DNA of 55,369 nt, filler included, from Sphacelaria rigidula (lineage: Eukaryota): assembly GCA_964200075.2 (NCBI GenBank). It is 5 parts of 5 records of this genome, joined end to end, with 100 filler letters (N's around TTAATTAATTAA, not from the genome) between each part and the next. Parts side by side here need not be neighbours in the genome. Positions count along the whole stretch, not along the records: positions 22,190 to 33,183 come from CAXNAA020005562.1; 4 more parts are not named here. The stretch is one strand, 5' to 3'. Under the pieces are notes generated by a model, which saw only the letters and a list, made by a program, of their open reading frames with translations, searched no databases and had not been told where the DNA came from. Below, piece by piece: positions 4,757 through 44,457 of the stretch. A program made the position numbers and the translations under genes. How positions within the stretch are numbered: position 1 is the first letter of the stretch; the number at the start of each line of letters is the position of its first letter.

Positions 4757-5329
4757 TGTTCAGGAGGCGAACAGGTTACCCATTGAACCAATGAGCGCAG
4801 TGAGCGCTCACTGATTGAATGGGTGACCTGTTCGCTTCCTGAACAAAATAAGTGCTGTGTGGCCCGTCCCGGCATGACACATCAGTGATCTCGGGGGCCC
4901 CTTACCCCTTGCCCCTCGCAAGCCTCACTGTTCCCACGTCAAACTCATTCCTCCCACAATCGATCATGCCGGGACTCGAACCGCAAATGTTTTGTTCATG
5001 AAGCGAACAGCTTCCCCATAAGCATATCTTTTGTGCAGGCAGCGAATAGTGTACCCATTGAACAAGTGAGTGCTCACTGGTTCAACGGGTAAACTGTTCG
5101 CTTCCTGAACAAAGATATGCGGTTCGAGTCCCGGCATGATCAATTGTGGAAGGAATGAGTTTGACATATGAACAGTGAGGCTTGCGAGGGGCAAGGGGCC
5201 CCGGAGATCACTGATATGTCATGCCGGGACGGACCACACGGCATATATTTTGTTCAGGAAGCGAACAGGTTTCTCATTGAACAAGTGAGCACTCACTGAT
5301 TCAATGGGTAGATAATTCGCTTCCTGAAT
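4757..5329. mobile_element. Palindromic element with three internal hairpins and a Pol III B-box (tRNA/SINE-like)
   Basis: Arms ~4800-5010 and ~5090-5300 are reverse complements; GGTTCGAGTCCC at 5121-5132 and its inverse near 4971-4983. Confidence 0.7.
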
Positions 5330-6295: not shown

Positions 6296-6691
6296 CAGCC
6301 GAGCATCAAAATTGAGGATGGAGCTTTTCATCGAGAATGAGAACCGGGAGAATTAACATCGTCGCATTCACACCAAATCTTCGGAATTTGGTTCCATTGC
6401 TTCACCTACTGGTAGTGATTGACAACTACTACACACCACACAAATTTGGATTTCGAAACCCGAATGGTTGGGGTCCTGGGTGAATAACCAATTTCGGGGG
6501 ATTTCGGCGATCCGATCGGATCACCGAAATTCCCCGAAATTGTTTCTCACCTAGGACCCCAACATGTCGGTAATCAGAATCCAAATTTGTACGGCGTGTG
6601 TAGTAGTTGTCAATAGCTACCAGTAGGTGAAGAAATGGAACCACATTTCGAAGATTTGGTGTGGATACGAAGGCATTAATTCTCCGGGTTC
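6296..6691. mobile_element. Fully palindromic MITE, copy 1 (right end truncated)
   Basis: Centre GATCCGATCGGATC at 6509-6522; arms pair outward for about 170 bp. Confidence 0.8.
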
Positions 6692-7600
6692 ACACGTGGA
6701 CAGATAGCGCCCTGTAGGATGTGCTGCACAGGGTTCTTTCCAGTCTTTGTGACAACTCCTGTATACAGCATATGCAAACCCTACTACCTCCACCAGCATT
6801 TCGTATAGCGTTTTTCTCGACACAAGGTAGGTAATTCTGTGGAGTCACTCCCAATTTGAAAAATCCAAATTATTTTGTTACAAGATCTGTAGAATTATTT
6901 ATTCAGCGAAAGCTGTTCCGAGTAAATCCTCTTCTTGCCCAATTTCCAATTGGGGCAAGAAGAGGATATACTTCGGACAGCTTCTGCTGAACAAATCCCA
7001 TACACTGGCAGAATTGGAAATTGTACAGCAGACGCTGCTCGAAATGAATCCTCACTTTGCCCGCCAATTCATCCAGAAATTGGGCAAAAAGATAACTTGT
7101 TGCGAACAGCCTCAGTTGTGCAAGTCCCACATACTGTACCGTAATCGGCGTATGAGATTCGAGAGGCAGAATAATTTGTTGAAAATTCATCCTTTTGATC
7201 CCGATTCACATGTCACCTAATAAGGGAATTTTCAACAGCATGTGCTGCTTTCATATCCCATACACTAACTGCGAGCGTATGACCACACGGCTGAGCTCAG
7301 CTGTGGTAATGGTGCGAGAGCAGCATATACCTTCCTATAGTGTGTACACGACAGTCCTGAAAACCCCGTAGTCTCGTGCTGACCAAAAACAACCGCAAGA
7401 ACATCGAGATATAGCAGGGATATCGCCACAACAATACTGGCGGTATGGTGCTGTACTGGACTCTACAATACCGTTCAGGACAGCACCATACCGTGCAGAC
7501 ACGTGTGGTGGCCCATATGCTACAAATCTAGCGCAGCGGCATGCGCTATAGGTACGGCTATACGATGTGGATGCCGGTCTGTTTAGATTCAGATACATAA

Positions 7601-8042
7601 CAGCCGATCGTCGAAATTGAGGATGAAGCTTTCGATTGAGGATGAGAACCCGGGGGATTGAAATCTCCGTATCCACAACAAATCTTCGAAATATGGTCCT
7701 TCCTTCACCCAGTGATAGTTATTGACAGCTGCTATACGCCCTACAAATTTGGATTTCGAACCCCGAAATGTTGGGGTCCTAGATGAAGGAAACATTTGAG
7801 GGAATTTAGGTGATCCGATCGGATCGCCGAAATTCCCCGAAATTGGTTTTTCACGTAGGATCCCAACATTTCGGTAATCGGAATCCAACTTTTTATGGCG
7901 TGTATTACTTGTCAATAGCTACCAGTAGGTAGGTAAAGGAATGGAACCATATTTCGGCGGTTTGGTGTGGATACGACGGTTTTAATCCTCCAGGTTTCCA
8001 TCCGCAACGAAAAGCTTCATCCTCAATTTCGATGATCGGCTA
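7601..8042. mobile_element. Fully palindromic MITE, copy 2 (about 440 bp)
   Basis: Centre GATCCGATCGGATC at 7812-7825; ends cagccgatcgtcgaaattgagg / cctcaatttcgatgatcggcta; a further fragment lies at 1-35. Confidence 0.8.
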
Positions 8043-8163
8043 TTATATGGGAGTATTGTATACCGCCATGTAGCCGAATGAGGTGGATCATGATATGTGT
8101 GGGTCGCCCATGAATTGCGATCACTGTTGTGCACGGGCAGCACGGTACATGTGTTTGCCCAAC

Positions 8164-10995: not shown

Positions 10996-11095
10996 NNNNN
11001 NNNNNNNNNNNNNNNNNNNNNNNNNNNNNNNNNNNNNNNTTAATTAATTAANNNNNNNNNNNNNNNNNNNNNNNNNNNNNNNNNNNNNNNNNNNN
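10996..11095. other. Artificial contig linker (N44-TTAATTAATTAA-N44)
   Basis: 44 N + TTAATTAATTAA (stops in all six frames) + 44 N; the identical 100-bp structure occurs four times. Confidence 0.97.
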
Positions 11096-12405
11096 TATAC
11101 ACTGCCTCATGGGTGCCTCACCATATAAACTCTACGTGAAACGATCATCCCCATTGTACGGAGTTGAGGTTCTCCCATGCCGCACAACATGATCTAGCTC
11201 GACGACCACCATGGTTGCCGCAAAAAAAAACGTTTTTTTTTTGGGGGGGGGCGTACTTATTTGTTGCTTGGCTTTGTGGGGGGTAAAAAGTGTCATTGAT
11301 AGATAGGTTAATTGCTTGATTGATTGCTCGAGTGATATGTTGCGAGGGTCGGACGAATCAATGATTCGTCCGGAAATTACTTGATTTTAGTGTAATTGAT
11401 TCGTGCGGTACGAATGAATTCTCACGCTTTTGTTGTCAGCGTTGCAACCCAGGTACGCGAAGCCCAGGCAGGTGGAATGGTCGAAACGTTGCGTGGAGAC
11501 CTGTTTGACCGGCGGTCGACTTTTTCTTTCTCTTTCGATCAATCAGGCCTAAGCAATCGTGGATTTGGTGATTCGAACCGGCGATGATTCGTCCAAACCG
11601 TGATATGCTGATTGGTTGATTGATTGATTGATTCGTTGTTGTCTTCACATGTAAAAGCGTGTCGATATCTGGTCAGTGCTTCTCACCTCTCTGATACGGA
11701 CGCCTTCCGTGGTCGCAGGCTAAATGCCCCCAAAAAGTTATTTAAGGAAATCACGTGAAAATAAAAAATAGCTCCAGAAAACTCGATACGGACGCACGAC
11801 ACAAGAAGATTTGATAATAGCCGCTGAAAATCCGGTGCCGCAGGCGACCATTCGTACAAATGGTATTGAGCCCATCGCTCCCACTCGACGCGCGTGATTG
11901 TCGCACATTAATGCAAGTATACATACAGAAATTTATGTATGTATGTATGTATAGAGGGGTCATGCCACGATAGAGGGGTGTCCTAATTTGTTGCTTGCCT
12001 CGGTCATTTGACCCTTGACCACGCACCCCTTTCGAGACGGGGCACCGTTCCTATTTCTCATAAAAAAACCTTCAACATTTCGGTGCTCATTCCTTCGAGG
12101 CACTCATGATCATGCATGCCTTAGTCATAAGACCATTGACCTCGCATCCCTACAAAGCCGCGACGGAGCACGCTTGGTTTTCGCCCGACCAGCCTCGCAA
12201 TCAATCACCAAGCGCAAAGCGCCGTGATGTGTTCCATGAGTCGCATGAAGGGTGAGCTGCATCCTGCAAAGATAGTTCGGCCCGAAGTGTACTGGCTATC
12301 TTTCATTTGGATGAGACAGCCTCCAATGAGTTGTTTCATTTTCTGGTATCGCCACTTCCAGAGACAGCCACGGCTTACACACTGCCTCATGGGTGTCTCG
12401 CCATA

Positions 12406-12835
12406 GGGGGGGAGGGGTTCTCATGTGTTGCTTGCCTCAGTCGTTTGACCATTGACCACGCATCCCTTTCGAGACGGAGCACAGGGGAGGAAGAGGGGGG
12501 GGGTCTCTTGGGCCATTTCTTCCACGAAATTCCAATTCAAATCGTCGTTGAAAGCAGCACCGTTTGTTCGAACGATCTTGTTACCGAATAATGATGCTGA
12601 CTCATCCCGGACTGCTTGACACCGTTTTCAACCAAATGCAAGCGCACCGCGAGTGTGGTAGGTCGTCTGACACACCTGTAAGTCCCTTTTTTGGTGGAAC
12701 CAGACACCCTTGTCCCCCTCACGTCTCGAAAGGGATGCGTGGTCAATGGTCAAACGACGAAGGCAAGTAACAAATCCGTACGCCAACCCCCCCCCCCCCC
12801 CCCCCCCCCACCCCCCCCTATCGTAGCATGAGTCA
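12406..12835. mobile_element. Dispersed repeat with inverted ~55-bp arms (TTGCTTGCC...GACCATTGACCACGCATCCCTTTCGAGACGGAGC), G/C homopolymers and a ~170-bp core
   Basis: Arms 12426-12480 / 12722-12772; arm copies at ~11988-12040, 22036-22089, 29605-29662; core copies at ~10820-10930 and ~33408-33600. Confidence 0.7.
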
Positions 12836-17505: not shown

Positions 17506-20203
17506 CCTCCTCAAGAGTGCGGAAACTTCACTCGGTGTTTGCGAAGCCGAATTTACGTGACTCGGCCGCGAGGTGTTCATAACTTCGCTAACTCGACTGC
17601 ATAGATATCATTTCCACGTAACTTCAATGATACCCCCATTTCCAACCCCGAAAGAGTAATCTCGATTCTACATGGTCATTTTCCAGTGAATGGAGGACTG
17701 CTATCGCAAAAGGAACTTCGGATTCGGCATCGCAACCAAATGATGTTTGGTTATGTCTGCTTTTCTCCATTTCAGTAAGAATTGGGCCCATGAGGCGTGG
17801 TTCTGGAATACGGCGAAAGTATTCCTGGGTTTAACGCTTATTTCCAATTCCTTTGGTGCGTCAAACGTTTTACCCGCATTGTGGTGGTCTCCTGACGTAT
17901 GTAGCGCCGGGTGCACTGATGAACGCGTTCTCCAGTGCATCGTTTCAGCCCCTATCCCCTCAGTCACGGTGTCCCCTGTGCACTCAATGGTTGACTTTTG
18001 GTGTTCCACAGGATCAGTACAGGATCAATGTCTTTCGTGGGGTCTTCGCATTGACGAGTTTTGATAGACAATCATTAGTTTTGTGTAGTTGGGTTCTCTT
18101 CAGCTTCTGTGCGCTCTCCTCGTTGACAGTGTTTGAGGGATATTGATGAGAGCTTTCTTTTGTGCAGTTTCATCATAACTTCTGAACAACTGGAACGGCA
18201 GAGTCGCGCATGCGATTACCAGCCCGCACACAAGAGCTTACACTCTTTCAAGGGTTCCGTTATTCCTTTGGAACAATGACTACATGATCCTGTAATTCAT
18301 GTCTTCAAGCTTCGAACACTCCACAGCATCCCTTGCCTTGGAATCGCTCAAGTTATGGGGTGGCACGAAGCGCCAAAACACTTGCATTCTTGCTACGAAT
18401 TTACATTTTACACAAGTCCTTCAGCGTAACGCATGACAGCGCAGAATCTCGCTGAGGTGTGACCCACCAGAATGCAGCCTTTTCTCCCGCAAACATTCCG
18501 TGTGATCAAACAGAGCCCACTATTGCTCTAGTTTTCATTTTCGGGACTTGCCGTTAAGTTGTTTGTTCTCTCATCAGTCCCTCTCTAGTCTCCCTTGTGG
18601 CTGGCAGACCTCTCTCTCCGTTGGCCACAACTACCTCTCCATATTACTCTTTCTCGCTTCTCCTTAGTGGTTACCTCTCTATCACTACGCCACAACCCGG
18701 CTCGCTCCCTCTCTGCAGCACATGATTTTTCGGAGTTCACAACGTGCCGCACCGTGCCACAAACTTGCCCCGTGCATCCAAGGGGAGCATACTGTATTTA
18801 CTTTTTCTTGACGCAGTTTGAACCCCTCCCCTTCCTCGAGACGAGTCCGTGGTCTCGAGGGATTCGCCCCTCTCTCCCCGGCACACGCCCTGCATTTTGG
18901 TCTTGCGGGTTGGGTCAGCACTACCACACCACGTCAACTCATATCAAACAAACTCAGTCGACTACTTTGTTTACTCTCGTCCTCATGCTTTCCAAGGTGG
19001 AAACCAGATACTACAAAGAAAAATTCCAACACATCAGTAAGCGAATCCTCGTTCTCTCTACCCCAATGGCTACAGTCGGTCCATTTCACCACCGGGGCGC
19101 GGCGTAAACCCCGGGTGAAAAACTTCATGGAGATTCGTATTTGACCTGTTGCTAGTATATTTTAACTGTGCACTCAATATTATTAGGTTCTCTCTATGTC
19201 ACCCTCTGGCCGTCAGCCCCTCTTCCTCTGTTGGCCACAACTACCTCTCCACATTACTCTCTCCCACGCGCCTTTTTCGCCAGCTACCTCTGCAACGTCT
19301 TTGTGCTATGAAAACCAAGTAAAAGCCTGTATCAAGATTTGCATTTGGACTGCTGCTGGCAATCACCCACTATTCACTCCATGTCTATGGGTCCTGAAAC
19401 ACGGCTGCGCCAATAACAAAATACAGCCGTGGTCGAGACCACTCACGGTGAGCGCTGCAGCGTCAGCCGCGTTGTCATCACGTCCTCAAACACAACGGCT
19501 GATAAAGAATGCACTGCCTTGATCGAGATGGATCTTACTGAGCGTTCTTCAGCGGCATGCCTCGACATCTTCGGGCGTCTGTCTGTGCTGCACATTTGCT
19601 CTTATTTCACGTTTAGAAACGTTTCCGTTTCAAGTCGTACGGTTCGACTTGTACCCGAAATATATGTCACTGCGGATATTTCCCGGCTATTTTTGTCGGT
19701 TGAAACAGTACACGAAGGAGACGCAACACTTGCACACATTCCGTGGCTGGCCGTCTCTTATCATGACCAATGGAAATCATTCGGCCCCCGCTGTCTCGAG
19801 TGACGCCGTCGACACCCCTGGAACCCTGCACACCGCAAGCATCCTGGAGAATGTCCGTAGTCAACCAAGGGACATACTTGTATCACCCAAGGTGACAAAA
19901 AACGCAACTTCGACTCTCTACAACACATGAAGGCCGCGCACTCCCCCGTAAGGTCGACCTCGTTTATCGAAATACCTCGACAAGATACGAAGATTTATCC
20001 AGCGGCACAGCTTCTTCCCGTGGTGTCCTCCCCGTGGTAAATAAGAAAATATATATATATATATATATAATTCGAGCTTATCGTATCACCCCGCATATTG
20101 ATATTCCAACCCGACGCCATCCCGATGTCATCCCGAGCCCTCCAATCTCCTTCGTGTTAAGCATGGTCGTTGATATTTATGCCAAGGGTGTGCTAACAAC
20201 TAT

Positions 20204-21899: not shown

Positions 21900-22089
21900 C
21901 TGGAATATGGAGGACCGAGAGGGATGGATAAATGGGGGGTGGGGCGGTGGGGAGGGGGGGCGGTCAACTCATGATCTTGCATGCCATAGTCATGTGACCA
22001 TTGAACGCGCGCGGGGGAGGGGGGCGTACTCATTCGTTGCTTGCCTTAGTCGTTTGACCATTGACCACGCATCCCTTTCGAGACGGAGC

Positions 22090-22189
22090 NNNNNNNNNNN
22101 NNNNNNNNNNNNNNNNNNNNNNNNNNNNNNNNNTTAATTAATTAANNNNNNNNNNNNNNNNNNNNNNNNNNNNNNNNNNNNNNNNNNNN
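22090..22189. other. Artificial contig linker
   Basis: Same N44-TTAATTAATTAA-N44 structure. Confidence 0.97.
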
Positions 22190-22589
22190 GCTCAACTCGT
22201 CTGTGTCGATGAGATACTGCTTTTAGAGCCTAAATCCGTTTTTAGGCTGGCCCAGCTCGTACGGCTTCTTCGACACTTCATGACACGAGAAGCTTGAACG
22301 ATACGAAATTGTCGTGTACTGCCTGCGAGTGCAGAAGCGCATGTGTTGCTACTACAGGCTGCACGTGAAGTTCTTGCGATGCGCATGCGAGTCACAGCAG
22401 ATATCTTCAAGGCCTCTTTCAACAAGCGTCAACAAATGGGCTAGGCGCTTTTGCGGGGGCGCACTAGGAGGACGCAGACAGTGCAACCCGCTTCGCGCAA
22501 AGCTGCTGCACATTCGAGCGCACGTATTCAAGAAGGAAAGAAAAAAAATGATGAAAAGATCGGGCAGACAGCCTACAACACCTGCGCAC

Positions 22590-22661
22590 CTGCCAACTTA
22601 TTGTTCGACAGGTCCAGACGCTCCAGGAAGCACAACTTCCCGATGCAGGGCGGGATAGGTC
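22590..22661 (-). CDS. LRR exon, 72 bp: GPIPPCIGKLCFLERLDLSNNKLA(G)
   Basis: cag|GA CCT ATC CCG ... TTG GCA G|gtgcgc. Confidence 0.9.
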
Positions 22662-25600
22662 CTGTCAACGGAAGATCGAAGATATGAAGCACACACAGAT
22701 GCCACCGTGGTACAGGGGGCACAGATTAGTTCCAAGAAGCTTTTGCGACATATCTACCGAACCTCATCGCGCGCAATACTCACCAGATATCAACATCTGA
22801 CCTGTTTTCTTGCACACGGGCGCTTGGAAACCCTTGACCAGAAGAAGCACATACAAGTGCATCTCTGAATAACGAAGGTTTGCTTGCGCGGGGTATTTAG
22901 GAGCGCTGCTTTTGCACGCCTCCAAAACTATAGTTCCCTACTCTACTCTACAGTCGATCCAACGTACCCGACGCCCAGCTACCTCTGACAATCCGACTGC
23001 TTCACGCGGAGGCGGCGGAAGCGATGCTGCACGGATATGCTACATGGACGCTGCGTCCCGAGGAAATACGGGAGGGGTTGAACTCCGCAGGAAAGAGCAA
23101 GCCGGCTACAACACTGTTGCACACAGAAATGTGCTCAAAATGACCAACTACGAACGTACCGAGACAGCCATCCGCAGGAGTCAACTCTGGTTCGAGGGGG
23201 GTCTTGTCCGACAGGACGAAACAAGTCCACACCCCAGACAATATATGGTCAAAAGATGCAATAGACGAGAAGAGTACTGCATAAAGCATGGGACTATTGT
23301 AACTATCGCTGGCCGACAATAGTCGAAATAGGCCCATACTTTATGCAGTATTTTTTTTGTCTATTGCAACTATTGACGATATATTGTTCAAGGTGTGAAC
23401 AAGTATCACAAACAAATCATGTTCGGACGGCTTTAATACAGTCGTACAAGAGCACCTGGAGGCTGGCCGATCCCCAAACACTGTGTACGACAAAACCCAT
23501 GCCCTCACCTGTGAGGCTGTTGTTGTTGAGGTAGAGCACCTTGAGGTTGACGAGCAAAGCCAAGGAAGAAGGGATGTCTCCTGCGACACCAGGGCACACG
23601 AAGCAGACCGCGAATCAAGAGGTGCACCCATACAAGCTATGAAGCAGAAAACAAGAGGGCGATGGAGAAACAGACAAACCTTTAACAACAACCACCGCGC
23701 CGCAGCTGGCACATGACCGACTAGTTTATGCGGAGCAGTGGGTTTAGGTTCGAATTTCGGCGGTGATGCCTCATTTCAGTAGTTCTGGTAGTGCTGGTAA
23801 AAAGCGTGAAAACATAATTTTCCCATGAAAGAATCGAAAAAAGTCGACGGGCTGCAGGAGTGCCGACGCAATGCTCCACGATAGCTTGCAAGGCAGGTGC
23901 ACACCTAGGGAACATCCATGTTTTTAATCCCGTGAGACTTGAGATTTGTCTCGAAAGAGTGATGGGGGACACGGATAGAGTATGGCGAAAAAAAAAAACT
24001 ACAGCTGGGTGTGGTTGCGATTCACCCGGCGCAGAATGCATCTCGTATCACGGCAGAAGGTAACATCGGCAGAACAAACGCTCCGTCGCGCCACTCGAGA
24101 TTTTTCTCGTGTGTAAGAATGCCGTCCAGTCTTGTCCGCAGTCTGGCCAAATTGACGTGGAAGGCCCGCGATTGAACGTCGCGAGAGTCACAGAGCTCTT
24201 ATAGTCTGAAATTACATTACGGATCGGCCCTTGTGTAGGTGGTTCACCCCAGAGGTGTCTAGTCTCAAGAAACCACAGAAATAATCAGCGACAAGCAGGC
24301 CTCTCTGACAATAAATGAGGAAGGACACATTGTTCTGTTATGTACACCTCGAATCACAAAATGATGCTCAAACTCGACCACCAACGTGCTCAATGCACGT
24401 GAACGGCAGAACCCAACTTTCCAACTCCTGCAGGTCCAACGGCACCACGCAGCCAGATTACTCGAGGGAGTGATCTCGCGATAACCCCTGTTGTTTGTCT
24501 TTGTTTATTTGTTATCACTGCTTCCTTTTCTTCTTTGCTTTCTGTGCTGTTGCTTCTTTCTTTTTCTGCTTCCTTCCTTCCTTCCTTCTTTTTCTGTTCG
24601 TTTTTTTTGCTGCTCCTGACGGCGGGCTGGATTGTTGCAATCAGCTAATGTGAGATGATCAATCAATCTATGAATCAATCTTCCCCCCTCGCCCCCCCCA
24701 CCCCGAGCCAACCCCAAAACTGCCACGAAGAAAAGATCATGGGTGTACACGTTACACGTGACGCTTTTACGTGACACATTCGAAGAAACGTAGCTTTGGG
24801 TCATTCAACGCTACGTAAGGTTTGTTTTTTTTGGATGGGACAAATGTAACTCAACGTGATCCTTCGCATGGGCCCTAACATGGCGTTTTCCTTTCCAAAT
24901 GTGACGAAAACTCTACGTTTTTTCGTGAATTTGTAACGTGTCACGTTAACAATTCACAAAAACAGCCTTTTTTTACACCTGAAAAATCCCAATAGTCACT
25001 GCTTGAAGGTCTACACGTTACATCACGTTACGCTACATGTGTCCCGTCTAAAAACTGGAAACCTTACGTAGCGTTAATTGGCCCAAGGTTACGTTTTTCG
25101 CGTTTTTTTTTCAAATGTGTCACGTGTGTAACGTGTATATCCCTGGAAAATGGCCATACAGCGCATGATAGCTGGTTTCAGACTGGATGAAGCGACTCGT
25201 ATGGGCGACATTGACGAAAACGATCCCAAGTATGGGAGGTCCCAGCTGCTCGGTGTGCTTGGCTCTCATCATTTTTATCCATATGTAGATTTTACTTCCT
25301 CAAACCAGCCACTTTTATGGGACGGGGGCTATCGCGGCATCACCCCAGAGAAAGCTGCACGTGTCCGGATTTTGAACCCCTAATCTTGTGCCCTGGCCGG
25401 ATATAATTGCATTGCACTCGTACAAATCGACTTAATGGTCGACGAGGGAAAGGGACTGCTGAACCCCTCTTACGGTAAAATAATAAGGGCGAGCACCGCA
25501 GAAGGATGTTGGAGAATTAAAAACAAACAAGGAAAAACTCTTGTAATGGCCTTTCTCCTGTGTGACCCCGGCTGATGTGCCCGCATATACCGAAGGTTGT

Positions 25601-28600
25601 AGCCCGGCGTCCAGAATAAATGGGACAGCACACACACACACTCTCATACCAGTTGTACAACCGGAGTGTGGTGGCTACTCGAAACAGGGGAAACCTTACC
25701 GGTGAAGTTGTTGTCGTCCAGCTCCAGTCTTACGAGGTCCGTGAGGTACGACAGCTCCATCGGGATGGGGCCTGCGCGATTCATGAAACATACACGGGAG
25801 AAACAAATCGTTGAGAGCGACTACTAGGACCAAGTAGCCCTTCTCGCTACCCCAGCAGAGTCATGGTCCCGTAGTGTAGAGCTGGATCAACAGCACGGTG
25901 CAAGTATGCGCGCGTCGCGGTACATACGGGGGACTTCGTGTGGCCCCGCGGTGCTGTGTCCGCTACCGCTACAGGCTCGTTCACGGGAAAAGACAAAAAA
26001 ATCTGTCATCAGCAATTACCTTCTGCAATACGCATCCAAAAGTCGCCTTCATGGTATCATACTGACAGCAATGAACAGACGAAGAGCGCGACATAGCCGG
26101 ATTTTTTAGAAAGGCTATAGCGGTGGCGCTATGGACAAAAATGTGTCTCGACCAATCAGCGCATTTCAAACTGGTCCGAAATTGAAAACACGAATTCCAA
26201 GCCCATTTTCCACCGAATCTCCACATGCTTCAAATCATAGTGACCGTCATCACCTCAAGAAACTAACGGGAGATACGGTTTTGAAAACGGTTCCAGCGGG
26301 GTCGAATTATAGCCGAAACCGTAATGCTTCGGTGATACGGAGTTTGGCGTCGTCTAGTTTCCACTCATAATACTCAGGAAAGACTCAGGGAGGGAGCCTC
26401 GTGACGATTTCCCTTATATCTGTTGAAGAAAAGCTAAGATCATCCTCAAACTTGGCAGTTCCGTAGGTATTGATGCTCCAAATGGAAAAATTATATTCTT
26501 GGCAAGAGTTTAAAGTTTCTATGTTCTCTACGGGCTTTCGGGGGTCTTTGAACTGGGACCCCGGAAGGCGGTACAGAATGACTCAAAAGAAAAGATAATA
26601 ACATGATGCGTCCCGGGATGGTACAAGGAACACATGTACGAAGTTTGAAGAAAATCGAAAATCTCATAAATTTCTCCTGCCTTGACATAAAATTCACCCC
26701 AAAAAGATGTTTTCATACTCAAACCAAGTAGTTAAGAGTTTGCACGTTTCAAGTTTACATCCTCGCACAGACGCGCAAATCTTGACGCATTTATTAGGAG
26801 TTAGACCCTGAAACTTCGCACAAATGTGCTATGAATCCTTACGCAAGTTTCGATCAACGAGGATCTTCCCTGTTTTGATTTTTTTTTACCGTTTTTCGGG
26901 GGTGCGACGGGATCCAAGTCGTTTTTCGAAGTCGTCCATTTTGGGACCCTGGAAAGCCGGCACTACGTTTTTTTTTTTTCCCATTTTTTTCGCGAACGCT
27001 CTGTCGCCGCAAAACCCAAGGAAGAACCCCACAAAGTTTCGTGACCAAACTCGATTAGCTGGTGCTTGAATTTTCATGTTCACGTCAAAGGCCCAAAAAT
27101 GCCATTTTTATACTAAAATCTAGTAGTTTGCCGTTCACCGTGGCACTCAGTTAAAGTGCGACAATCAAATCAATCAAATTACGGCAAGGTTCATTGCACA
27201 AACGCGAAAAACTTCACGCCGTTTTAAGGAGTTCGACCCTGAAATTTTGCACAACTGTGCTATGGGTCATTACACAACTCTGGATGAACGAGTTTTTTTT
27301 CTCCTTTTTTACCGTTTCACGGGGGTCCGACTGGATCGAAGTTTCCCCCAAAAAACGGTGAAAAAAGTCAAGAAGTGAAAAAACCTCGACCTTGGAAAGT
27401 TGCGTAGTGACCCATAGAACACCTGTGCAAACTTTCAGGGTCCAACCCCTTAAAACGGCGTGAAGTTTTGCCGATGAATGATATGTTTTTTCCCGTGAAC
27501 CAGCCTGTATCACTCGATAGGAAGTCCCTTGAGGCAGAAACAAGCGCACCCGACCGGCGAGCAGACGGTTCCACGTTCCAATACTTGCGGGTGCTTCTTT
27601 CCGACAACCGCAGGCCGGGGCCGGGTGATCTTTCCAGGTAGAAAAAGGTAAATAAACACGAACAGTGTACCGTAACCAGCTACTATATCCACCACTCCCA
27701 AATATGTTGGTGCAAACGTGCCAGGTCTACGCCACGCATCGTACCCTGTACCGTTACTCCTCCCAAGGGAAAGGGTCTTGTTCTACACGTCCTCCATGGT
27801 CTGAGAGTCTTCAAGGTGTGAAAAACACCACGAAAAGCGCAAGGTGGGGGAGTCCCACATGCATCTCATGAGCTAGTCACAGTGGGGTATTTCAGTATGT
27901 TTCGCCTCACTCACCTCATCTCAAGTAATTTGCACTACCCTACAAAATAAACGTGAGTACATCGATACAAAGCAGACATGCTAAGAGTAGGGTACCGCTC
28001 GGTATTTCAGGTACGCCTCTACACTTTGTATCTTTTTCTGTCGATAGTGCAGGTGCGCTGGAAAATACTAAATATTTTCGGTGTCTCCGTGTCTCATCTC
28101 AGGTGCCGTGGGGTACTCCGTACTGCCAATATCGCGTGAAATTCGGGCATACCGAAATACTCGGTATCTAACATTACTATAATTTGTGGTCCAGTTCTTA
28201 GCACTCAGCACGCCAGGTTGGTACCCCGGTCCAGCACACCGCGCCACAAAGATATTCCCATCATGCTGTATCTCACAAGTAATACCGCACAATGGTCATG
28301 AGATAGTCTTACCTGTAAAGCCGTTCCCGCTCAAAACCAACTCCTGCAGAAGCACCAGTCCTCCGAAAGACGCAGGGATCGGGCCTGGATCGGGAGCGAA
28401 GGACGAGTGTAGCGATCATACCGACTGTACCCTCGTTCGCTAGCGCCAACATCACTCGCCCACGACGGTGGCATTTCTTCATGTCGCAACGGTTCCGTTG
28501 GTCTATATCGCATTTATCCGAATTTCCCGAAATTTTCAATCCTACAGAACGGGCATTAAGATACGGCCAACACTTGTGAACAACGAAGCTCGCATGACAG

Positions 28601-29450
28601 CACCCTCCCGCCTCGTACAGTCAGTGATGACCAAGTGCTTGTAAAACACCACTCCGTGAGTGAACAAGAGCGTTCAACTAATGCCCGCATGCGTTCATCA
28701 ACTGTTGAGCAACGTAGGGTACTCTTGTTGCTCAGTAGCAGTCCTTGCCCCTAGCGCACACCTTCGAGGTCATTGTCAGCCAGAAACAACTGCTCCAGCT
28801 CTTCCAGCTTAGACATCTCCTCCGGTATAGGCCCTATCGTGGTAGATATAAATAATATCACACGACATCACAGCACAGCACAGCACATCTCACCCCGTCA
28901 TGACACATTTCAGCACATTTTCGACAAAAATTCGAGAAGAAACAGCACACACATAATAAAGAAAGTGGAGTGTCACAACGAAAACTCACACTTCTCAGTG
29001 GCTCGAGCGGACGACTGACCTGTGAGCTTGTTATTGCTCAGGAACAGATGCTTGAGGGCCGTGAGCTGCCCAATCTCCGGGGGAATGGCATTGCTCAGGT
29101 GGTTATCCCGGAGGCTCAGCGTCTGAAGCGCTGTCAGGGCGCCCAGCTCCGGTACCACGTGACCTGTGATTGTCGTTATTGTTGTTTGACCCACATGTTT
29201 GTTTTACTTTTACTGGTCGAATTTATGACATTACTGTACTGCTGTTGGTTTGTGAGACACCATCGAAAGTATAACAAACCCAGGGAGTGAATCTACAAAT
29301 TCTTCCATCCGATCTGTCGAAGGCCTGCTTATTCAAAATGAGTCACAAGTATGTCCATGCTTCAGTCCGACTCGTATTTGATTTGATCGTTTTGCCGATC
29401 GCGCGGTTTTGACCAACCTGGCTGGCTCCAATGCTCACGTTCGCCCTCTC

Positions 29451-29487
<37 letters not shown>

Positions 29488-29568
29488 CCCCCCGCCGCCC
29501 CCCAACACACCTCCCCCCCCCAGCGCCNNNNNNNNNNGTCTGCCAGTCCCGCTCTGCCCATGCTTCCC

Positions 29569-29602
<34 letters not shown>

Positions 29603-30138
29603 ACGCTCCGTTTCGAAAGGAATGCGTGGTCAATGGTAAAATGACCAAGGCAAGCAACAAATAAGTACCCCCCCCGACGCCTTCGTGGAGCCAGGTGGCA
29701 CTCATGACATGATTCAGCAGCACCTTCAATAGGCAAGTGCGCATGGGCACTAGCCGGTTCCAAGCATTTTATCGCAAGTTATGCGAGTTAATTTTTTCTC
29801 GACCCACGAGAAGCAGATCCAGGCCCAAATATCGTCCAAGCACCTTTCAGCATGTATGGTCCCATAGAACGAAGGAGATCTGAAACCTACGGAACAGTGA
29901 CCCAAGTGAGCCACAGAGAAAGGTCCAAATTCGTCAATGTGTCTATTTTTTTCTCGAGGGAATGGATATCTGTGAAACAATGTTCCTTTTTGAATAATTT
30001 AAAAACACCGACAGAAGTAGCAGACTATATTCGTGGATGGATGTTCAAGCAGGCTTAGGATCTCACCCTTCAAGCTGTTGCCGCGCAGGCTCAGGATCTC
30101 CAGGTGGCGCAGCTGTGAGATTGAACTGGGAATCAAGC
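22590..30138 (-). CDS. Partial multi-exon leucine-rich-repeat protein gene (LRR-ROCO or LRR receptor-like; 8 LRRs in 7 exons; start and C-terminal domain lie outside the recognised exons)
   Basis: Exons 30067-30138, 29020-29163, 28762-28833, 28313-28384, 25700-25771, 23509-23580 and 22590-22661 all have AG/GT borders, are all phase 1-1, and splice in frame into GxIPxxxxxLxxLxxLxLxxNxLxG repeats. Confidence 0.92.
23230..23395. mobile_element. MITE, same family, inside an LRR-gene intron
   Basis: caccccagacaatatatggtcaaaagatgcaatagac / gtctattgcaactattgacgatatattgttcaaggtg. Confidence 0.6.
23509..23580 (-). CDS. LRR exon, 72 bp: GDIPSSLALLVNLKVLYLNNNSLT(G)
   Basis: cag|GA GAC ATC CCT ... CTC ACA G|gtgagg. 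Confidence 0.9.
24738..25145. mobile_element. MITE with ~85-bp TIRs (CAGGG-type end, possibly hAT-derived) in an LRR-gene intron
   Basis: gggtgtacacgttacacgtg...aacgctacgtaaggtt / aaccttacgtagcgtt...gtgtaacgtgtatatccctg. Confidence 0.6.
25700..25771 (-). CDS. LRR exon, 72 bp: GPIPMELSYLTDLVRLELDDNNFT(G)
   Basis: cag|GC CCC ATC CCG ... TTC ACC G|gtaagg. Confidence 0.9.
28313..28384 (-). CDS. LRR exon, 72 bp: GPIPASFGGLVLLQELVLSGNGFT(G)
   Basis: cag|GC CCG ATC CCT ... TTT ACA G|gtaaga. Confidence 0.9.
28762..28833 (-). CDS. LRR exon, 72 bp: GPIPEEMSKLEELEQLFLADNDLE(G)
   Basis: tag|GG CCT ATA CCG ... CTC GAA G|gtgtgc. Confidence 0.9.
29020..29163 (-). CDS. Double LRR exon, 144 bp: GHVVPELGALTALQTLSLRDNHLSNAIPPEIGQLTALKHLFLSNNKLT(G)
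   Basis: cag|GT CAC ... CTC ACA G|gtcagt; two tandem 24-aa LRRs. Confidence 0.92.
30067..30138 (-). CDS. LRR exon, 72 bp: GLIPSSISQLRHLEILSLRGNSLK(G)
   Basis: cag|GC TTG ATT CCC ... AGC TTG AAG G|gtgaga; 24-aa plant-type LRR consensus. Confidence 0.9.
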
Positions 30139-30761
30139 CTGCGATGACAGGACAGAGGAGCAGTCATCCGCACGAGGCGCAGAAGGATCAAATATACAGC
30201 CACATTTCGCCCGGTCAACGAGATGTCACGACCGTAGTGCTCAACTCTTGAGACAAGGACTAAGGTGAAACTGTACTACGAACGCCCTACCGAGAGCGTG
30301 TGTCCTTCGTCTCAAAATTAAATCTGGAGTGAAAAATGTGGCCGAAATCGATTCTTCGATTCGATGCCGGCCACGGCATTCATTTCCTTGGTTTTTTCAT
30401 TCATGCTTTCGTTCTAGACTCACTTCCCGTGGAGGGCGTGTCTCATCAAGGGACATGACCAGCAGAAAAGGACGGCGGAACCCATTATTTTCGTTGTCTG
30501 TTTTGCGCGGTTAACAGGGAATTCTCGACAAAAACACGAGAGAAACATGAGTGTAACGTGCGGCTGCAGCGAAAGCTACGAACCATAGATCAACAGCGTC
30601 CCCAACTAGAAATTCGTTCAAACTTTGGTAACTGGATAGACACTGGTCCGTTGAAACAGTTGTTAGCCCGGGCCCTAGCTTTTACCCGATCTATCTATCT
30701 TGTGATTTGTTTGGTGCCGAACGGCCCCGAGGTGAAGTAGATCATTGGAAAATATACAAAA

Positions 30762-32287
30762 AAGGGTACAGCCTCATGCTTTTGGACCTCAAAACGTTAC
30801 CACATTTTTTCGGTTTGGGGCGCGGTGTTGCACGCGGGCTCAACACCTCGAAAACACGCTCCAGCACCTCAACCCCACGCCCAAGGTGTCTGGGCGGCAT
30901 GCTTGACAATTTTTTTTCATCATCATTTCACACGCGGTACAAGGCTAAACTATGGCGCGTAAAGAGGGTCTGTGAGAGTACCCTTTTTTATCCACAAACC
31001 AGGAGGGTACACCCTTTTGTTTTCACGTGTATACCCTTCGATGCTCAAGTGTATACCCGCCTTTACCTTTTTTTGTGCAGTGGTGACCGTACTGCCGGCT
31101 CCTCAGGAGATACACCGAACAGTCACAACCATACCCATTTTTTTTTGTGAAATCACGCCGTGCCCAAAAGGCGAAAACCCAACGGCCAAGAAATTGTATC
31201 CTCCTCCTCGTTGGCCCGCAAACCCTCGGAAGATCCGACGATGCATACAGGGCGCGAACGCTTGTGTGACGGAGCTAAAAATAGATACGTGTGATATTTT
31301 TTGCCGACGCACACACGCCCGAACGGCATCATGTGGCGTTGCCATGATCATTGAACCACGGATACCGTGGGCACAGACAACGTGTTTGTTACTCTGCTCG
31401 TAGTTTATTTCCGCCTGCCTGACCCCTCTCGTACTCCCAGCATGGCTTCACGCTGTTTGTAGTGTTGTGGAACAAAAAGCACAGACATAAGCAGCGTCCA
31501 CTTGACTGTGTTTGGTGGAGAGCGAAGGCGTAACGACTGTTTCTTGCCGTTGTTTTCAGCCAAGACATACAACACACGTAACTGAATCTGCACACACTTG
31601 ACTGCAGGGTGAGAACATGTCGGGGGCCCTTCGGGACTGTGAGTTCTGGTCATGATCCGCAAATTGCAGATCTTGCAGCGGTCTGATGTTTAACGATCAT
31701 GGTGACGCCATTTGGGCGTGTGTGCGTTGGCAAGATGTTTCACATGCATTCGTTGGATCTTCGTGAGCTCCAACACACAAGCATTCGCGCCCTGTACGCA
31801 TCGTTGGATCTTCCGAGGGTTTGCGGGCCACTTTATTGGTCTATGGATTTCGCATTTTAGGCGCGGCGTGATTTCACAAAAAAAAGGGTATGGTTGTGAC
31901 TGTTCGGTGTATCTCCTGAGGAGCCGGCAGTACGGTCACCACTGCACAAAAAAGGGTAAAGATGTGTATACACTTGAGCATCAAATAGTACACACGTGAG
32001 AACAAAAGGGTAAGATATTTTTCTCAGCAGAAAGCAGGGTGTACCCTCCTGGTTTGTTCACAAAAAAGGGTACGCTCACAGCCCCCTCCTTTACGCACCG
32101 TAATTGAGCCTTATACAACGTGTGAAGTGATGAAACAAGAATGATCGGGGATGCCGCCCAGACACCTTGGGCCTGGGGTTGAGGCGCTGGAACGTGTTTC
32201 GAGGTGTTGGGCCCGCGCGCAGCGCCGCGCCTCAAATTGAAAAATGTGTTGACCTTCCTTGTTCCAAAATCATGAGGCTGTACCCTT
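30762..32287. mobile_element. About 1.5-kb foldback element (arms ~590 bp, spacer ~31356-31687)
   Basis: aagggtacagcctcatg / catgaggctgtaccctt termini; long internal matches such as accgtactgccggctcctcaggagatacaccgaacagtcacaaccataccc and its inverse. Confidence 0.85.
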
Positions 32288-33183
32288 CTTGGACATTATC
32301 GTCGATTATTTGTCTGTTTCGAATACCCTCTAGCTGCACCTAACTCAAAATTGACTGCTTTTGAAAAATCGTGACAAGAAATATCACCTGGATTGCTACT
32401 GCTTGCTCAACACCCCACGCCAAGTCATGAATGCCTCTCAAACAGATTACAGTACCCCGAGCCGTCGTGGACTGCGGCTGCACGTGTCATGTTACCATGT
32501 GTCAAAGGGGTTGTGCGCGTAGTGTGAGTGCAGGCAGCTACCGATGAACGCATGAAAATATCGGACACATGATTCAAACAGTCGAAGTTGGCGGGCATGG
32601 TACAGGGATGGTGCAGACATGGGGCAAAAAGAACAATAATTTTGTCAGATTGAGAGTGTAGCGTTGATCGAGTGTGGGATTACTCGTTCGCTTTAACTTG
32701 ACCATTTTTCCTTTCTGTGTGATTTTTTTGCCTGTAACACTGGCGTGTGCTTACAGTTACACGTCGATATCCTACTCAGGGATATCAAGGGCTTCAGTGG
32801 CAAGCGACTACAGAACGTGTATCGGGTCTCGTGGAGGGACATTTCGGAACTGAAATGATTAAATCATTAACAGGTTGCTCTGCTTCGCATCGCACTTCCA
32901 ATTTTCCTTTATCCTTTCTTGCATTGGAATGGAATGGAAAAGGGACAGAAGAGACAGATGCCCTCAATGAAGAAAAGCAAGAACGGCATACAAGCAGAAG
33001 AAGGTACAGAAAGAAAGTAAGGCTACAGATTGACGATGACAATTTCGCGCATCGCACCACGCAAATTCCAGACACTATCGTTCTAGTCCAAGTGACGTCC
33101 TTCCACGTGTGCAAGGCCGCGACAGTGAAGAAGCTATACTACTGTACTTTATTGGCAAAGCACAGTAGTATAGCGTCGTCACT

Positions 33184-33283
33184 NNNNNNNNNNNNNNNNN
33201 NNNNNNNNNNNNNNNNNNNNNNNNNNNTTAATTAATTAANNNNNNNNNNNNNNNNNNNNNNNNNNNNNNNNNNNNNNNNNNNN
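33184..33283. other. Artificial contig linker
   Basis: Same N44-TTAATTAATTAA-N44 structure. Confidence 0.97.
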
Positions 33284-33357
33284 CCTCCCCCCTACCTCGC
33301 CGCCCTGCCGCCGCCGCTCGCGGGGGGGTGGGCCGGCCACGACCCAGACGCGAGGGG

Positions 33358-33405
<48 letters not shown>

Positions 33406-42639: not shown

Positions 42640-43100
42640 CTGGGGGGGTGGACGTATTTTCCAGTTTTACGCCATTTGACACGGTTTCTGGTCCCCAAAC
42701 AGGGGTTATTGCCATCAGATGTCTTGGACACTTCGCGTCACCTCACTGAAGAGTCTAGCCCACTTTTTCGATTCGGTTGGCTCCGAGGCTTCGAGGTTGA
42801 CCTCCGAACAAAAATCTAGCTGGACGTGAAAAAATAACGTGTACACGTGAATCTTTGGTGATTTTTGGAGTTTTCAATATCGTGCTCACATATTTTCATG
42901 CCCGGCTAGATTGTTTTGTTCAGAGGCCATTCTCGAAACATCGGAGCGAAGCGAGTCGGGGAAGTGGGCTGGGCTCCTCTCGGTGAGGTAATGCAAAGTG
43001 TCCAAGATATGTGATGTCGATATTACCGGTTCGGGGGCCGAGAACTGGATCAAATATCCCCCCCCTGAAAAATATGCCCCCCCCCCCCCCGCCCTCCCCC
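42640..43100. mobile_element. Foldback element with ~190-bp arms and G/C-run ends
   Basis: tcttggacactt.gcgtcacctcac / gtgaggtaatgcaaagtgtccaaga; gaacaaaaatctagc / gctagattgttttgttc. Confidence 0.65.
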
Positions 43101-44276: not shown

Positions 44277-44376
44277 NNNNNNNNNNNNNNNNNNNNNNNN
44301 NNNNNNNNNNNNNNNNNNNNTTAATTAATTAANNNNNNNNNNNNNNNNNNNNNNNNNNNNNNNNNNNNNNNNNNNN
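44277..44376. other. Artificial contig linker
   Basis: Same N44-TTAATTAATTAA-N44 structure. Confidence 0.97.
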
Positions 44377-44419
44377 GAAAAAAAAGGGTGAGAGGGGGGC
44401 GGGGGGAGGGGGGGTGGGT

Positions 44420-44457
<38 letters not shown>

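What the first reader, a model, noticed from the sequence alone, without database searches (positions are those of the whole stretch)
22590..30138. Array of interchangeable one-repeat-per-exon LRR cassettes (candidate exon-shuffling immune receptor)
Seen: seven minus-strand exons scattered through 7.5 kb of repeat-filled introns, mostly missed by the ORF track. Six are exactly 72 bp and one is 144 bp. Every intron interrupts the same Gly codon (phase 1), so any exon can be skipped, duplicated or swapped without a frameshift. The framework (GxIP...LxxLxxLxLxxNxLxG) is fixed, while the solvent-facing segments differ in every unit (EILSLRG, QTLSLRD, KHLFLSN, EQLFLAD, QELVLSG, VRLELDD, KVLYLNN, ERLDLSN). 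Established: brown-algal LRR-ROCO genes (described in Ectocarpus) have single-LRR exons of 24 codons and are proposed pathogen receptors diversified by exon shuffling. Inference: this is a member of that system or a related LRR receptor, able to diversify combinatorially by splicing or recombination. The architecture is known; this instance and its effector domain cannot be identified from the window.
Basis: partly seen in the sequence, partly recalled or inferred. Interest (0 to 1): 0.75.

Follow-up and report, generated by a model that had tools for sequence, protein, structure and literature searches.

The report
Expressed gene with one-repeat-per-exon LRRs
This is a real, transcribed algal gene whose leucine-rich-repeat domain is built from small exons that each encode one repeat, an architecture already described in brown algae, and this copy shows no sign of actively reshuffling its exons.

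Summary
Seven minus-strand exons (six of 72 nt, one of 144 nt) lie at the stated coordinates. All have AG/GT borders and all split a Gly codon after its first base. Together they encode eight 24-residue plant-type LRRs.

Three probable RNA runs each hold one ~4.5 kb contig. Its depth falls only on these exons and is zero in intron-only bins, so the exons are spliced as predicted. About 3.4 kb of the mRNA lies 3' of the last exon, outside this piece of the window.

The architecture is the published brown-algal "type I LRR exon" (PMC3341825, PMC11378527). It occurs in ROCO GTPases, some LRR-kinases and many other LRR genes.

ROCO membership cannot be tested here. No Roc, COR or kinase coding is in the window and no ortholog was found.

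Evidence at this locus goes against "interchangeable cassettes":
- the units are only 38-58% identical in DNA;
- there are no relic or antisense LRR exons;
- one intron has been lost;
- the three RNA assemblies show the same isoform;
- a second DNA sample has the same exons.

Verdict: a new member of a known kind, of low interest.

The parts
30067..30138 (-). LRR exon 1 (72 nt; GLIPSSISQLRHLEILSLRGNSLK). It is the first LRR exon visible in this piece, not the first exon of the gene.
   Evidence: AG/GT borders and phase. RNA-contig depth in its bin corresponds to 76 nt covered in all three RNA runs. Place 30068 is covered at exactly the contig depth.
29020..29163 (-). Double LRR exon (144 nt; units 2 and 3, joined by an Asn codon). 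An intron has been lost within the array.
   Evidence: Pfam LRR_4 3e-8, LRR_1 4.5e-7, LRR_8 2.1e-6. It matches without mismatch at 29019-29161 in one 4465-4520 nt contig of each of X6, X7 and X8 (table 8).
28762..28833 (-). LRR exon (unit 4; GPIPEEMSKLEELEQLFLADNDLE)
   Evidence: Bin depths 28429-28795 and 28796-29162 equal contig depth times the exon bases in all three RNA runs.
28313..28384 (-). LRR exon (unit 5; GPIPASFGGLVLLQELVLSGNGFT)
   Evidence: Bin 28062-28428 has depth 6.21/4.86/4.81, which equals 31.7/24.8/24.5 x 72/367.
25700..25771 (-). LRR exon (unit 6; GPIPMELSYLTDLVRLELDDNNFT)
   Evidence: Sequence only. Its inclusion in the mRNA is not shown, because its bin is swamped by high-copy repeat depth.
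23509..23580 (-). LRR exon (unit 7; GDIPSSLALLVNLKVLYLNNNSLT)
   Evidence: Place 23565 is covered at exactly the contig depth in X6, X7 and X8. DNA run X4 has G>A there, which gives Ser to Phe at unit residue 6.
22590..22661 (-). LRR exon (unit 8; GPIPPCIGKLCFLERLDLSNNKLA). It is the last exon visible; its GT donor shows that the gene continues.
   Evidence: Bin 22557-22923 has depth 6.21/4.86/4.81, which equals contig depth x 72/367.
22662..30066 (-). Span of the six phase-1 introns (903, 186, 377, 2541, 2119 and 847 nt) with the five internal exons between them. The introns carry foldback repeats at 27208-27469, 23218-23407 and 24786-25096. Intron 1 holds a poly-G tract with a 10-N gap at 29442-29612.
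   Evidence: Intron lengths; inverted repeats. RNA depth is zero in the intron-only bins 23658-24391, 29163-29529 and 30264-30630; bin 27695-28061 reads 0 in X6 and X7 and 0.35 in X8. The length of intron 1 is uncertain because of the gap.

Best explanation
The seven exons are the visible part of the LRR domain of an ordinary, expressed nuclear gene of an alga. A brown alga or close relative is most likely, but that is an inference.

Shown: the exons are spliced at the predicted sites into an mRNA of about 4.5 kb. Roughly 530-570 nt of that mRNA lie 5' of the first visible LRR exon, and about 3.4 kb lie 3' of the last one. Both parts are outside this 11-kb piece of the window.

Inferred from what is established for LRR domains: the eight 24-residue plant-type repeats (LxxLxxLxLxxNxLxGxIP) stack into a curved solenoid. 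Its beta-sheet face, formed by the variable xxLxLxx residues, binds a partner. The domain serves as the recognition or regulatory module of a large protein of about 1,100-1,300 residues.

Not shown: the C-terminal part. The single most likely architecture is LRR-Roc-COR (ROCO GTPase), at about 45%. Another type I LRR protein is about 45% and an LRR-kinase about 10%.

The one-LRR-per-72-nt-exon layout with symmetric phase is an inherited family trait, the 'type I LRR exon'. It permitted exon duplication and shuffling during evolution. At this locus, however, the array looks old and static and is spliced constitutively.
For: Exon structure and motif; Pfam LRR.

Splicing:
- X6, X7 and X8 each hold one contig (4520, 4465 and 4485 nt) that matches 29019-29161 with no mismatch, 606, 574 and 568 nt from one end and 3771, 3748 and 3774 nt from the other.
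- Depth in the five repeat-free bins that hold exons equals the contig depth (31.7/24.8/24.5) times the exon bases in the bin.
- Depth is 0 in the intron-only bins, apart from 0.35 in X8 at 27695-28061.
- The 2 nt missing at 29162-29163 and the extra bases in the exon-1 bin fit the GT ambiguity at the exon 1/exon 2 junction.

Static array:
- Pairwise unit identity is 38-58% nt and 33-58% aa.
- nhmmer --max over the whole window finds only the 8 units; the next hit has E 0.8.
- A protein HMM against 2535 six-frame ORFs finds only the 8 units (full-ORF E 1.4e-26 to 4.6e-11, per-unit 9e-14 to 7e-11); the next hit has E 0.72 and reads as noise.
- No exon-flank duplication appears in self-BLAST.
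- There is a fused 144-nt exon.
- DNA run X4, from another study, covers every exon in the same local context. It shows 2 exon differences, one synonymous and one Ser>Phe.

Known architecture: PMC3341825 sections 12 and 15 and PMC11378527 sections 10 and 11.

Size fit to ROCO:
- The mean brown-algal ROCO is 1241 aa.
- Ectocarpus P0047 has its LRRs up to about residue 270, Roc at 349-469, and 1064 aa in total.
Against: - The runs are only guessed to be RNA.
- The splice joints themselves were not among the 15 of 322 joints printed. Splicing therefore rests on depth arithmetic plus one listed piece per run.
- Inclusion of exon 25700-25771 is not shown.
- Contigs drop rare variants, so minor exon-skipping isoforms are not excluded. 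Teng et al. report such isoforms for two Ectocarpus ROCOs.
- Only 7.5 kb of the gene is visible. Relic exons, or recently duplicated units, could lie in the unseen part or elsewhere in the genome.
- The brown-alga assignment is indirect. It rests on the label 'algae metagenome' for X4, on an Ectocarpus LRR-Roc protein among the hits, and on the exon architecture.
- Nothing in the window speaks for Roc-COR specifically. LRR-only proteins (P0001, P0030) and bacterial LRR proteins are as similar as the ROCO hits, at 45-53%.
Confidence: 0.8

Rival explanations
1. One reading: an LRR-ROCO candidate immune receptor whose single-LRR exons are used as interchangeable cassettes. New binding surfaces would be generated at this locus by alternative splicing and/or ongoing exon shuffling.
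For: - All exons are symmetric (1-1 phase, multiples of 72 nt), so any skip or duplication keeps the frame.
- The architecture matches that of Ectocarpus and Saccharina ROCO genes, for which exon shuffling, positive selection and multiple splice variants are reported.
- The transcript size fits a ROCO.
Against: - No relic or antisense LRR exons, which are the published hallmark of shuffling and were seen at 19 ROCO loci.
- The units are deeply diverged, at 38-58% nt identity.
- One intron has been lost.
- The same exons are present in a second DNA sample.
- No Roc or COR coding in the window.
Confidence: 0.1
2. The LRR domain belongs to a non-ROCO protein. This could be an LRR receptor-like kinase, or one of the many other type I LRR proteins of brown algae (LRR-only or with another C-terminal domain). 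It would act in protein-protein interaction or signalling, not necessarily in immunity.
For: - In Ectocarpus, 5 of 15 LRR-kinases and 46 of 164 other LRR loci use type I exons. None of the kinase loci and only 13 of the 46 show shuffling traces, which matches the static picture here.
- P0001 (1417 aa) and P0030 (806 aa), both eukaryotic hits, carry LRRs only. P0001 shares a brown-alga-type N-terminus with the Ectocarpus ROCO P0047.
- The ROCO hits are no closer than the others.
Against: - The 3.4 kb of transcript after the eighth LRR suits the about 790 residues plus UTR that follow the LRRs in Ectocarpus ROCO P0047.
- ROCOs are the largest single class with type I exons in Ectocarpus, at 37 genes plus 20 pseudogenes.
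Confidence: 0.5
3. Not a functional gene: chance LRR-like ORFs, or a decaying pseudogene array in repeat-rich DNA.
For: The locus lies among transposon-like repeats. No start or end of the gene is visible in the window.
Against: - There are 8 motifs against 0.66 expected.
- All 7 exons are stop-free with canonical splice sites.
- A spliced contig of about 4.5 kb is present in three runs, with zero mismatches on the listed exon.
Confidence: 0.03

Closest known systems
Brown-algal 'type I LRR exon' genes (Zambounis et al. 2012, PMC3341825; Teng et al. 2024, PMC11378527)
   Same: - 72-nt exons, each encoding one 24-residue LRR with the pattern GxxPxxLxxxxxLxxLxLxxNxLx.
- Nucleotides 3-71 encode 23 residues and the Gly codon is split across the intron.
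- Plant-specific GxIP motif.
- Long introns.
   Different: - One exon here is a fused double unit of 144 nt.
- No intronic, inactivated or antisense LRR exons.
- No recently duplicated units within the 7.5 kb seen.
Ectocarpus/Saccharina LRR-Roc-COR (ROCO) GTPases, e.g. the Ectocarpus protein P0047 (LRR + Roc)
   Same: - N-terminal array of type I LRRs.
- Transcript length compatible with a protein of about 1,100-1,300 aa.
- P0047 is 46.5% identical over 170 aa of the LRR domain.
   Different: - Roc, COR and the LRRNT-like N-terminus were not found in the window.
- The similarity is at the generic LRR level and equals that to bacterial LRR proteins.
Plant-specific (PS) LRR proteins such as LRR receptor kinases (rice/sorghum BAM1 hits P0043, P0044) and PGIP
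   Same: The 24-residue repeat with LxxLxxLxLxxNxLxGxIP. The two-unit exon is 63-67% identical to the best repeat pairs of these proteins.
   Different: No kinase, signal peptide or LRRNT was detectable here. Whether plant LRR-RLK genes lack the one-repeat-per-exon structure is recalled and was not tested.
Lamprey variable lymphocyte receptors (the analogy drawn in PMC3341825)
   Same: LRR cassettes as conceivable units of combinatorial diversity.
   Different: VLRs are assembled by somatic gene conversion from flanking cassette libraries. Here there is no cassette library in the window and no evidence of rearrangement: the DNA run X4 is collinear.

Membership tests
Type I LRR-exon genes of brown algae | Each LRR is encoded by its own 72-nt exon | tested here: met
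   6 of 7 exons are 72 nt. 1 is 144 nt, which is two units with the intron lost.
Type I LRR-exon genes of brown algae | Exon register GxxPxxLxxxxxLxxLxLxxNxLx, with nt 3-71 encoding 23 residues and a split first codon | tested here: met
   L10, L13, L16, L18 and N21 are invariant in 8 of 8 units. G1, I3 and P4 are present in 7 of 8. All 6 introns split G|GN.
Type I LRR-exon genes of brown algae | Exons are actually spliced into an mRNA | tested here: met
   Depth arithmetic and the listed contig piece in X6-X8 support 6 of 7 exons. Exon 25700-25771 is masked by repeat depth. The runs are only guessed to be RNA.
Type I LRR-exon genes of brown algae | Host is a brown alga | not testable with these tools
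   No genome is held and organism names are coded. The support is indirect only.
LRR-Roc-COR (ROCO) GTPases | Roc GTPase domain (PF08477) C-terminal of the LRRs | not testable with these tools
   The 3' 3.4 kb of the transcript lies outside the window piece. tblastn of three ROCO proteins (P0047, P0048, P0054) against the whole window hits only the LRR exons.
LRR-Roc-COR (ROCO) GTPases | COR domain (PF16095/PF25497) after Roc | not testable with these tools
   Same reason as for Roc.
LRR-Roc-COR (ROCO) GTPases | About 45-residue LRRNT_2-like N-terminus before the LRRs (Ectocarpus ROCOs) | tested here: inconclusive
   Relaxed tblastn of 11 proteins against 30139-33183 gave only noise, E 0.3 or worse. 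The 5' exons may lie beyond the piece.
Exon-shuffling (dynamic) LRR loci in the sense of Zambounis et al. | Intact or inactivated LRR exons in introns or on the non-coding strand, or recently recombined units | tested here: not met
   nhmmer --max and a protein HMM over 2535 ORFs find only the 8 coding units. Unit identity is at most 58% nt. Only 7.5 kb of the gene could be examined.
LRR receptor-like kinases | Transmembrane segment and protein kinase domain | not testable with these tools
   tblastn with the kinase-bearing hits (P0041-P0045, P0062) found only the LRR exons in the window. The rest of the transcript is unseen.
Pfam LRR clan | Score above the gathering threshold for an LRR model | tested here: met
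   For the 48-aa exon: LRR_4 34.1 bits (cut-off 27), LRR_1 29.2 (20.6), LRR_8 27.8 (27).

The most novel reading that the evidence does not exclude
The array is one member of a repertoire that diversifies within individuals. Minor mRNA isoforms that skip or repeat single LRR exons, or somatic rearrangement of the cassettes, would give each cell or thallus a varied set of recognition surfaces. This is the 'adaptive-like immunity' idea raised for brown algae in 2012. Contig-level data cannot exclude rare isoforms or rare rearranged DNA.
Probability: 0.04. Interest if true: 0.8.

Novelty: new member of a known kind. Interest (0 to 1): 0.15.

Why it matters
It matters little beyond annotation. The locus is a correctly recognised example of a gene architecture published in 2012 and revisited in 2024.

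Two points are useful:
- It shows that short-exon LRR genes missed by ORF tracks can be recovered and confirmed with transcript contigs.
- It is a case of a type I LRR array that is static: diverged units, an intron loss and one isoform. This is a reminder that the symmetric exon layout alone does not show ongoing combinatorial diversification.

If the unseen C-terminus proves to be Roc-COR, the gene adds one member to the brown-algal ROCO candidate-receptor family.

Tried and rejected
- Whole-genome access. None is held for this window. One search was a frame error of mine and was corrected.
- Ortholog search with the 48-aa exon, lengths 'longer'. It returned 63 proteins, with 29.7-52% identity to the spliced domain. 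None is an ortholog.
- Ortholog search with the alignment of the 7 exon translations, to draw words from all units. 8000 candidates were scored, 5279 had E<=0.001 and 120 were listed. The list is swamped by many-repeat bacterial proteins; the best is 52.9% over 191 aa among 179 proteins.
- Metagenome contig scan for a longer copy of the locus. It gave 14 loci at no more than 61% identity, all unrelated LRR genes.
- tblastn of all 63 hits against the window to find Roc, COR or kinase exons in any of the five pieces. There was only one hit outside the exons (22427-22513, E 0.002), judged to be noise.
- Search for N-terminal exons upstream: noise only.
- Rfam scan: no match.
- Earlier findings of this scan: nothing held.
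- No RNA holder is listed on record for the stretch. X6-X9 are only guessed to be RNA.
- Bins without RNA cover upstream of 30264 do not locate the 5' exons.
- The weak HMM hit at 17580-17675 was read and rejected as non-LRR.
- I did not use the third protein search, the representative-library search, the atlas, or structure and complex prediction. A 24-48 residue LRR query can only return generic LRR proteins, and the spliced domain could not be handed to those tools.
- The supplementary tables of both papers (lists of type I loci, selection tables) were not seen. They could refine the prior odds for ROCO against other classes.
Full report
**What the window is.** The 55,369-base window is not one continuous stretch. 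Four linkers of 44 N + TTAATTAATTAA + 44 N, starting at 10996, 22090, 33184 and 44277, cut it into five pieces of about 10,995 bases. The finding lies wholly in piece 3 (22190-33183). Whatever belongs to the gene beyond those limits is therefore absent, and the neighbouring pieces need not be adjacent in the genome. The pieces share interspersed repeats. No whole genome is held for the window.

**Observation.** I scanned both strands for AG|exon|GT(GC) with exon lengths of 72, 144, 216 or 288 nt and no stop when read in phase 1.
- There were 291 candidates on the plus strand and 295 on the minus strand. Only 7 carry an LRR motif.
- Six are 72 nt and one is 144 nt. Each consists of 2 nt that complete a Gly codon, 23 (or 47) codons, and 1 nt (G) that opens the next Gly codon. 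All six introns therefore lie in the same phase within G|GN.
- The 144-nt exon is two repeats without an intron, and the junction residue there is Asn.
- The eight units read GLIPSSISQLRHLEILSLRGNSLK, GHVVPELGALTALQTLSLRDNHLS, NAIPPEIGQLTALKHLFLSNNKLT, GPIPEEMSKLEELEQLFLADNDLE, GPIPASFGGLVLLQELVLSGNGFT, GPIPMELSYLTDLVRLELDDNNFT, GDIPSSLALLVNLKVLYLNNNSLT and GPIPPCIGKLCFLERLDLSNNKLA.
- L10, L13, L16, L18 and N21 are invariant. G1, I3 and P4 are present in 7 of 8 units.
- The core motif occurs 8 times in the six-frame translation, against a mean of 0.66 (maximum 3) in 100 Markov-1 simulations.
- Pfam LRR_4, LRR_1 and LRR_8 pass their cut-offs on the 48-residue exon.

**Expression and splicing.** The look-up of sequencing runs listed five runs of 'organism A' or 'algae metagenome' that hold 31-78% of the sampled words. 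It also listed four small runs of another study (X6-X9, 'RNA?', a guess) that hold 5-6%. The exons make up 5.8% of the stretch queried.

I laid X6, X7, X8 and the DNA run X4 on 22190-33183.
- Each of X6, X7 and X8 holds one long contig (4520, 4465 and 4485 nt; depth 31.7, 24.8 and 24.5). It matches 29019-29161 without a mismatch and continues far beyond on both sides of the record.
- In the five repeat-free bins that contain exons, the mean depth equals contig depth times exon bases divided by 367 in all three runs. For example, 6.21/4.86/4.81 corresponds to 72 nt in bins 22557-22923 and 28062-28428, and 15.5/12.2/12.0 corresponds to about 180 nt in 28796-29162.
- Bins that hold only unique intron sequence read 0, apart from 0.35 in X8 at 27695-28061.
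- Places 30068 and 23565 are covered at exactly the contig depth.

So six of the seven exons are shown to be part of one spliced molecule. The seventh (25700-25771) is hidden under repeat depth.

- The exon-2 piece stops 2 nt short of the acceptor and the exon-1 bin carries a few extra bases. That is what the shared GT at the exon 1 donor and the start of exon 2 predicts.
- The splice joints themselves were not among the 15 of 322 joints printed.
- In transcript orientation, exon 2 starts 568-606 nt from the 5' end of the contig and is followed by 3748-3774 nt. After subtracting the five downstream LRR exons, about 3.4 kb of mRNA lies 3' of 22590, outside the piece.
- The three downstream lengths differ by 3-26 nt, never by 72. 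The dominant assembled isoform is therefore the same in three samples.

**DNA of another sample.** X4, from a different study, gives unique-depth contigs over every exon in the same local context (records 1-5), broken only at repeats. In exons it differs at two places: 30068, which is synonymous, and 23565, which changes Ser to Phe at unit residue 6. There is no exon presence/absence difference.

**Signs of shuffling.**
- The eight units are 38-58% identical in nucleotides and 33-58% identical in residues.
- An nhmmer profile of the units, run with --max over the whole window, returns only the eight units (E 1e-13 to 9e-9); the next hit has E 0.8.
- A protein HMM over all 2535 six-frame ORFs of 12 residues or more also returns only the eight units; the next hit has E 0.72 and reads as non-LRR.
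- Self-BLAST shows repeats in the introns but no duplicated exon flanks.

The introns do hold foldback elements (27208-27469, 23218-23407, 24786-25096) and very high-copy repeats. Intact or decayed LRR exons in introns or on the opposite strand, which Zambounis et al. used as the mark of dynamic shuffling, are thus absent from the 7.5 kb that can be seen. One intron of the array has been lost.

**What the rest of the protein is.**
- tblastn of all 63 proteins from the first search against the whole window hits only the LRR exons. These 63 include three ROCOs (P0047 LRR-Roc from Ectocarpus, P0048 LRR-Roc-COR-TIR, P0054 LRR-Roc-COR-EAD7; Pfam) and several LRR-kinases. There is one noise hit outside the exons.
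- No LRRNT-like N-terminal exon is detectable in 30139-33183. Part of that stretch is a large inverted repeat (30759-32290).
- Two protein-database searches and a metagenome-contig scan gave no ortholog.
- The spliced 192-residue domain was joined only inside scripts. It is 52.9% identical at best to any of 179 fetched proteins, the best being bacterial metagenome LRR proteins. It is 46.5% identical to the Ectocarpus ROCO P0047. That is generic LRR similarity.

The C-terminal domain cannot be named.

**Comparison with what is known.** I read the following in each paper.
- Zambounis et al. 2012 (PMC3341825): sections 12 and 15 in full, plus found passages.
- Teng et al. 2024 (PMC11378527): abstract and sections 10 and 11.

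Zambounis et al. define the 'type I LRR exon' as 72 nt and 24 residues, with the pattern GxxPxxLxxxxxLxxLxLxxNxLx. In Ectocarpus it occurs in:
- all but one of the ROCO loci (37 ROCOs are counted, with 20 related pseudogenes);
- 5 of 15 LRR-kinases;
- 46 of 164 other LRR loci.

Antisense or inactivated intronic LRRs are found at 19 ROCO loci and 13 other loci, and at none of the kinase loci.

Teng et al. describe the same 72-bp exon, with nt 3-71 encoding 23 residues, in four brown algae. They report 111 ROCOs with a mean length of 1241 aa, splice variants for two Ectocarpus ROCOs, and positive selection at unit sites 14, 16, 18 and 19.

The present exons match the type I definition in length, register and phase. 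From the Ectocarpus counts, and the fact that a 4.5 kb mRNA with 3.4 kb after the eighth LRR suits a ROCO (P0047 has about 790 residues after its LRRs), I put ROCO at about 45%, another type I LRR protein at about 45% and an LRR-kinase at about 10%. This is an inference, not a test. The supplementary tables that list the loci were not available.

**How it most likely works.**
- Shown: the exons are transcribed and spliced into one long mRNA.
- Established for LRR domains generally: the repeats form a curved solenoid, the conserved L/N positions build the core, and the xxLxLxx residues line the concave binding face.
- Inferred: this domain is the recognition or regulatory module of a large cytosolic or membrane-anchored protein.
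- Differences between repeats at the exposed positions are normal for any LRR protein. They do not by themselves indicate diversifying selection.
- The symmetric exon layout made duplication and shuffling possible in the family's history. The locus itself looks old and fixed.

**Verdict.** This is a new member of a known kind, of low interest (0.15). The bold reading is within-individual diversification by rare isoforms or rearrangement. Contig data do not exclude it, but nothing here supports it (about 4%).

Noticed in passing
window 10996-11095, 22090-22189, 33184-33283, 44277-44376: There are four identical 100-base linkers (44 N, TTAATTAATTAA, 44 N) at equal spacing of about 11,094 bases. 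The window is therefore five pieces of about 10,995 bases joined artificially. Features cannot be followed across the linkers, and adjacency of the pieces is unknown.
   Followed up: partly
window 29442-29612: Intron 1 holds long poly-G runs (minus strand) around a 10-N gap. The DNA contigs of X4 break on both sides (29441 and 29648). This is probably a low-complexity tract that the assembly could not cross, so the stated intron length of 903 nt is uncertain. Similar G-rich ends recur at 11972-12045, 12406-12480, 22013-22089, 33350-33403 and 44396-44453.
   Followed up: partly
window 30759-32290: A large inverted repeat lies just upstream of the first visible LRR exon: about 600-nt arms at 77% identity, with inner arms at 92% (31011-31147 / 31875-32011). 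It looks like a foldback transposon or two inverted copies of an element.
   Followed up: no
window 27208-27469, 23218-23407, 24786-25096: Palindromic, MITE-like foldback elements sit inside the LRR gene's introns. Similar self-complementary elements occur in other pieces (for example 4759-5328, 6338-6694, 7597-8046, 42642-43087).
   Followed up: no
window 25126-25859, 29530-29896, 32466-32832, 22190-22556: These intronic or flanking stretches have summed contig depths of thousands to tens of thousands in the probable RNA runs as well as in the DNA run. They are high-copy repeats that are also present in transcripts.
   Followed up: no
window 24540-24610 and 25615-25640: Simple-sequence tracts lie in introns: a (GGAA)n-like purine run and a short (TG)n run on the minus strand.
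   Followed up: no
whole window: No stop-free frame longer than 234 codons exists in 55 kb, there is no Rfam match, and no further recognisable coding exon was found. The other four pieces were not annotated.
   Followed up: partly
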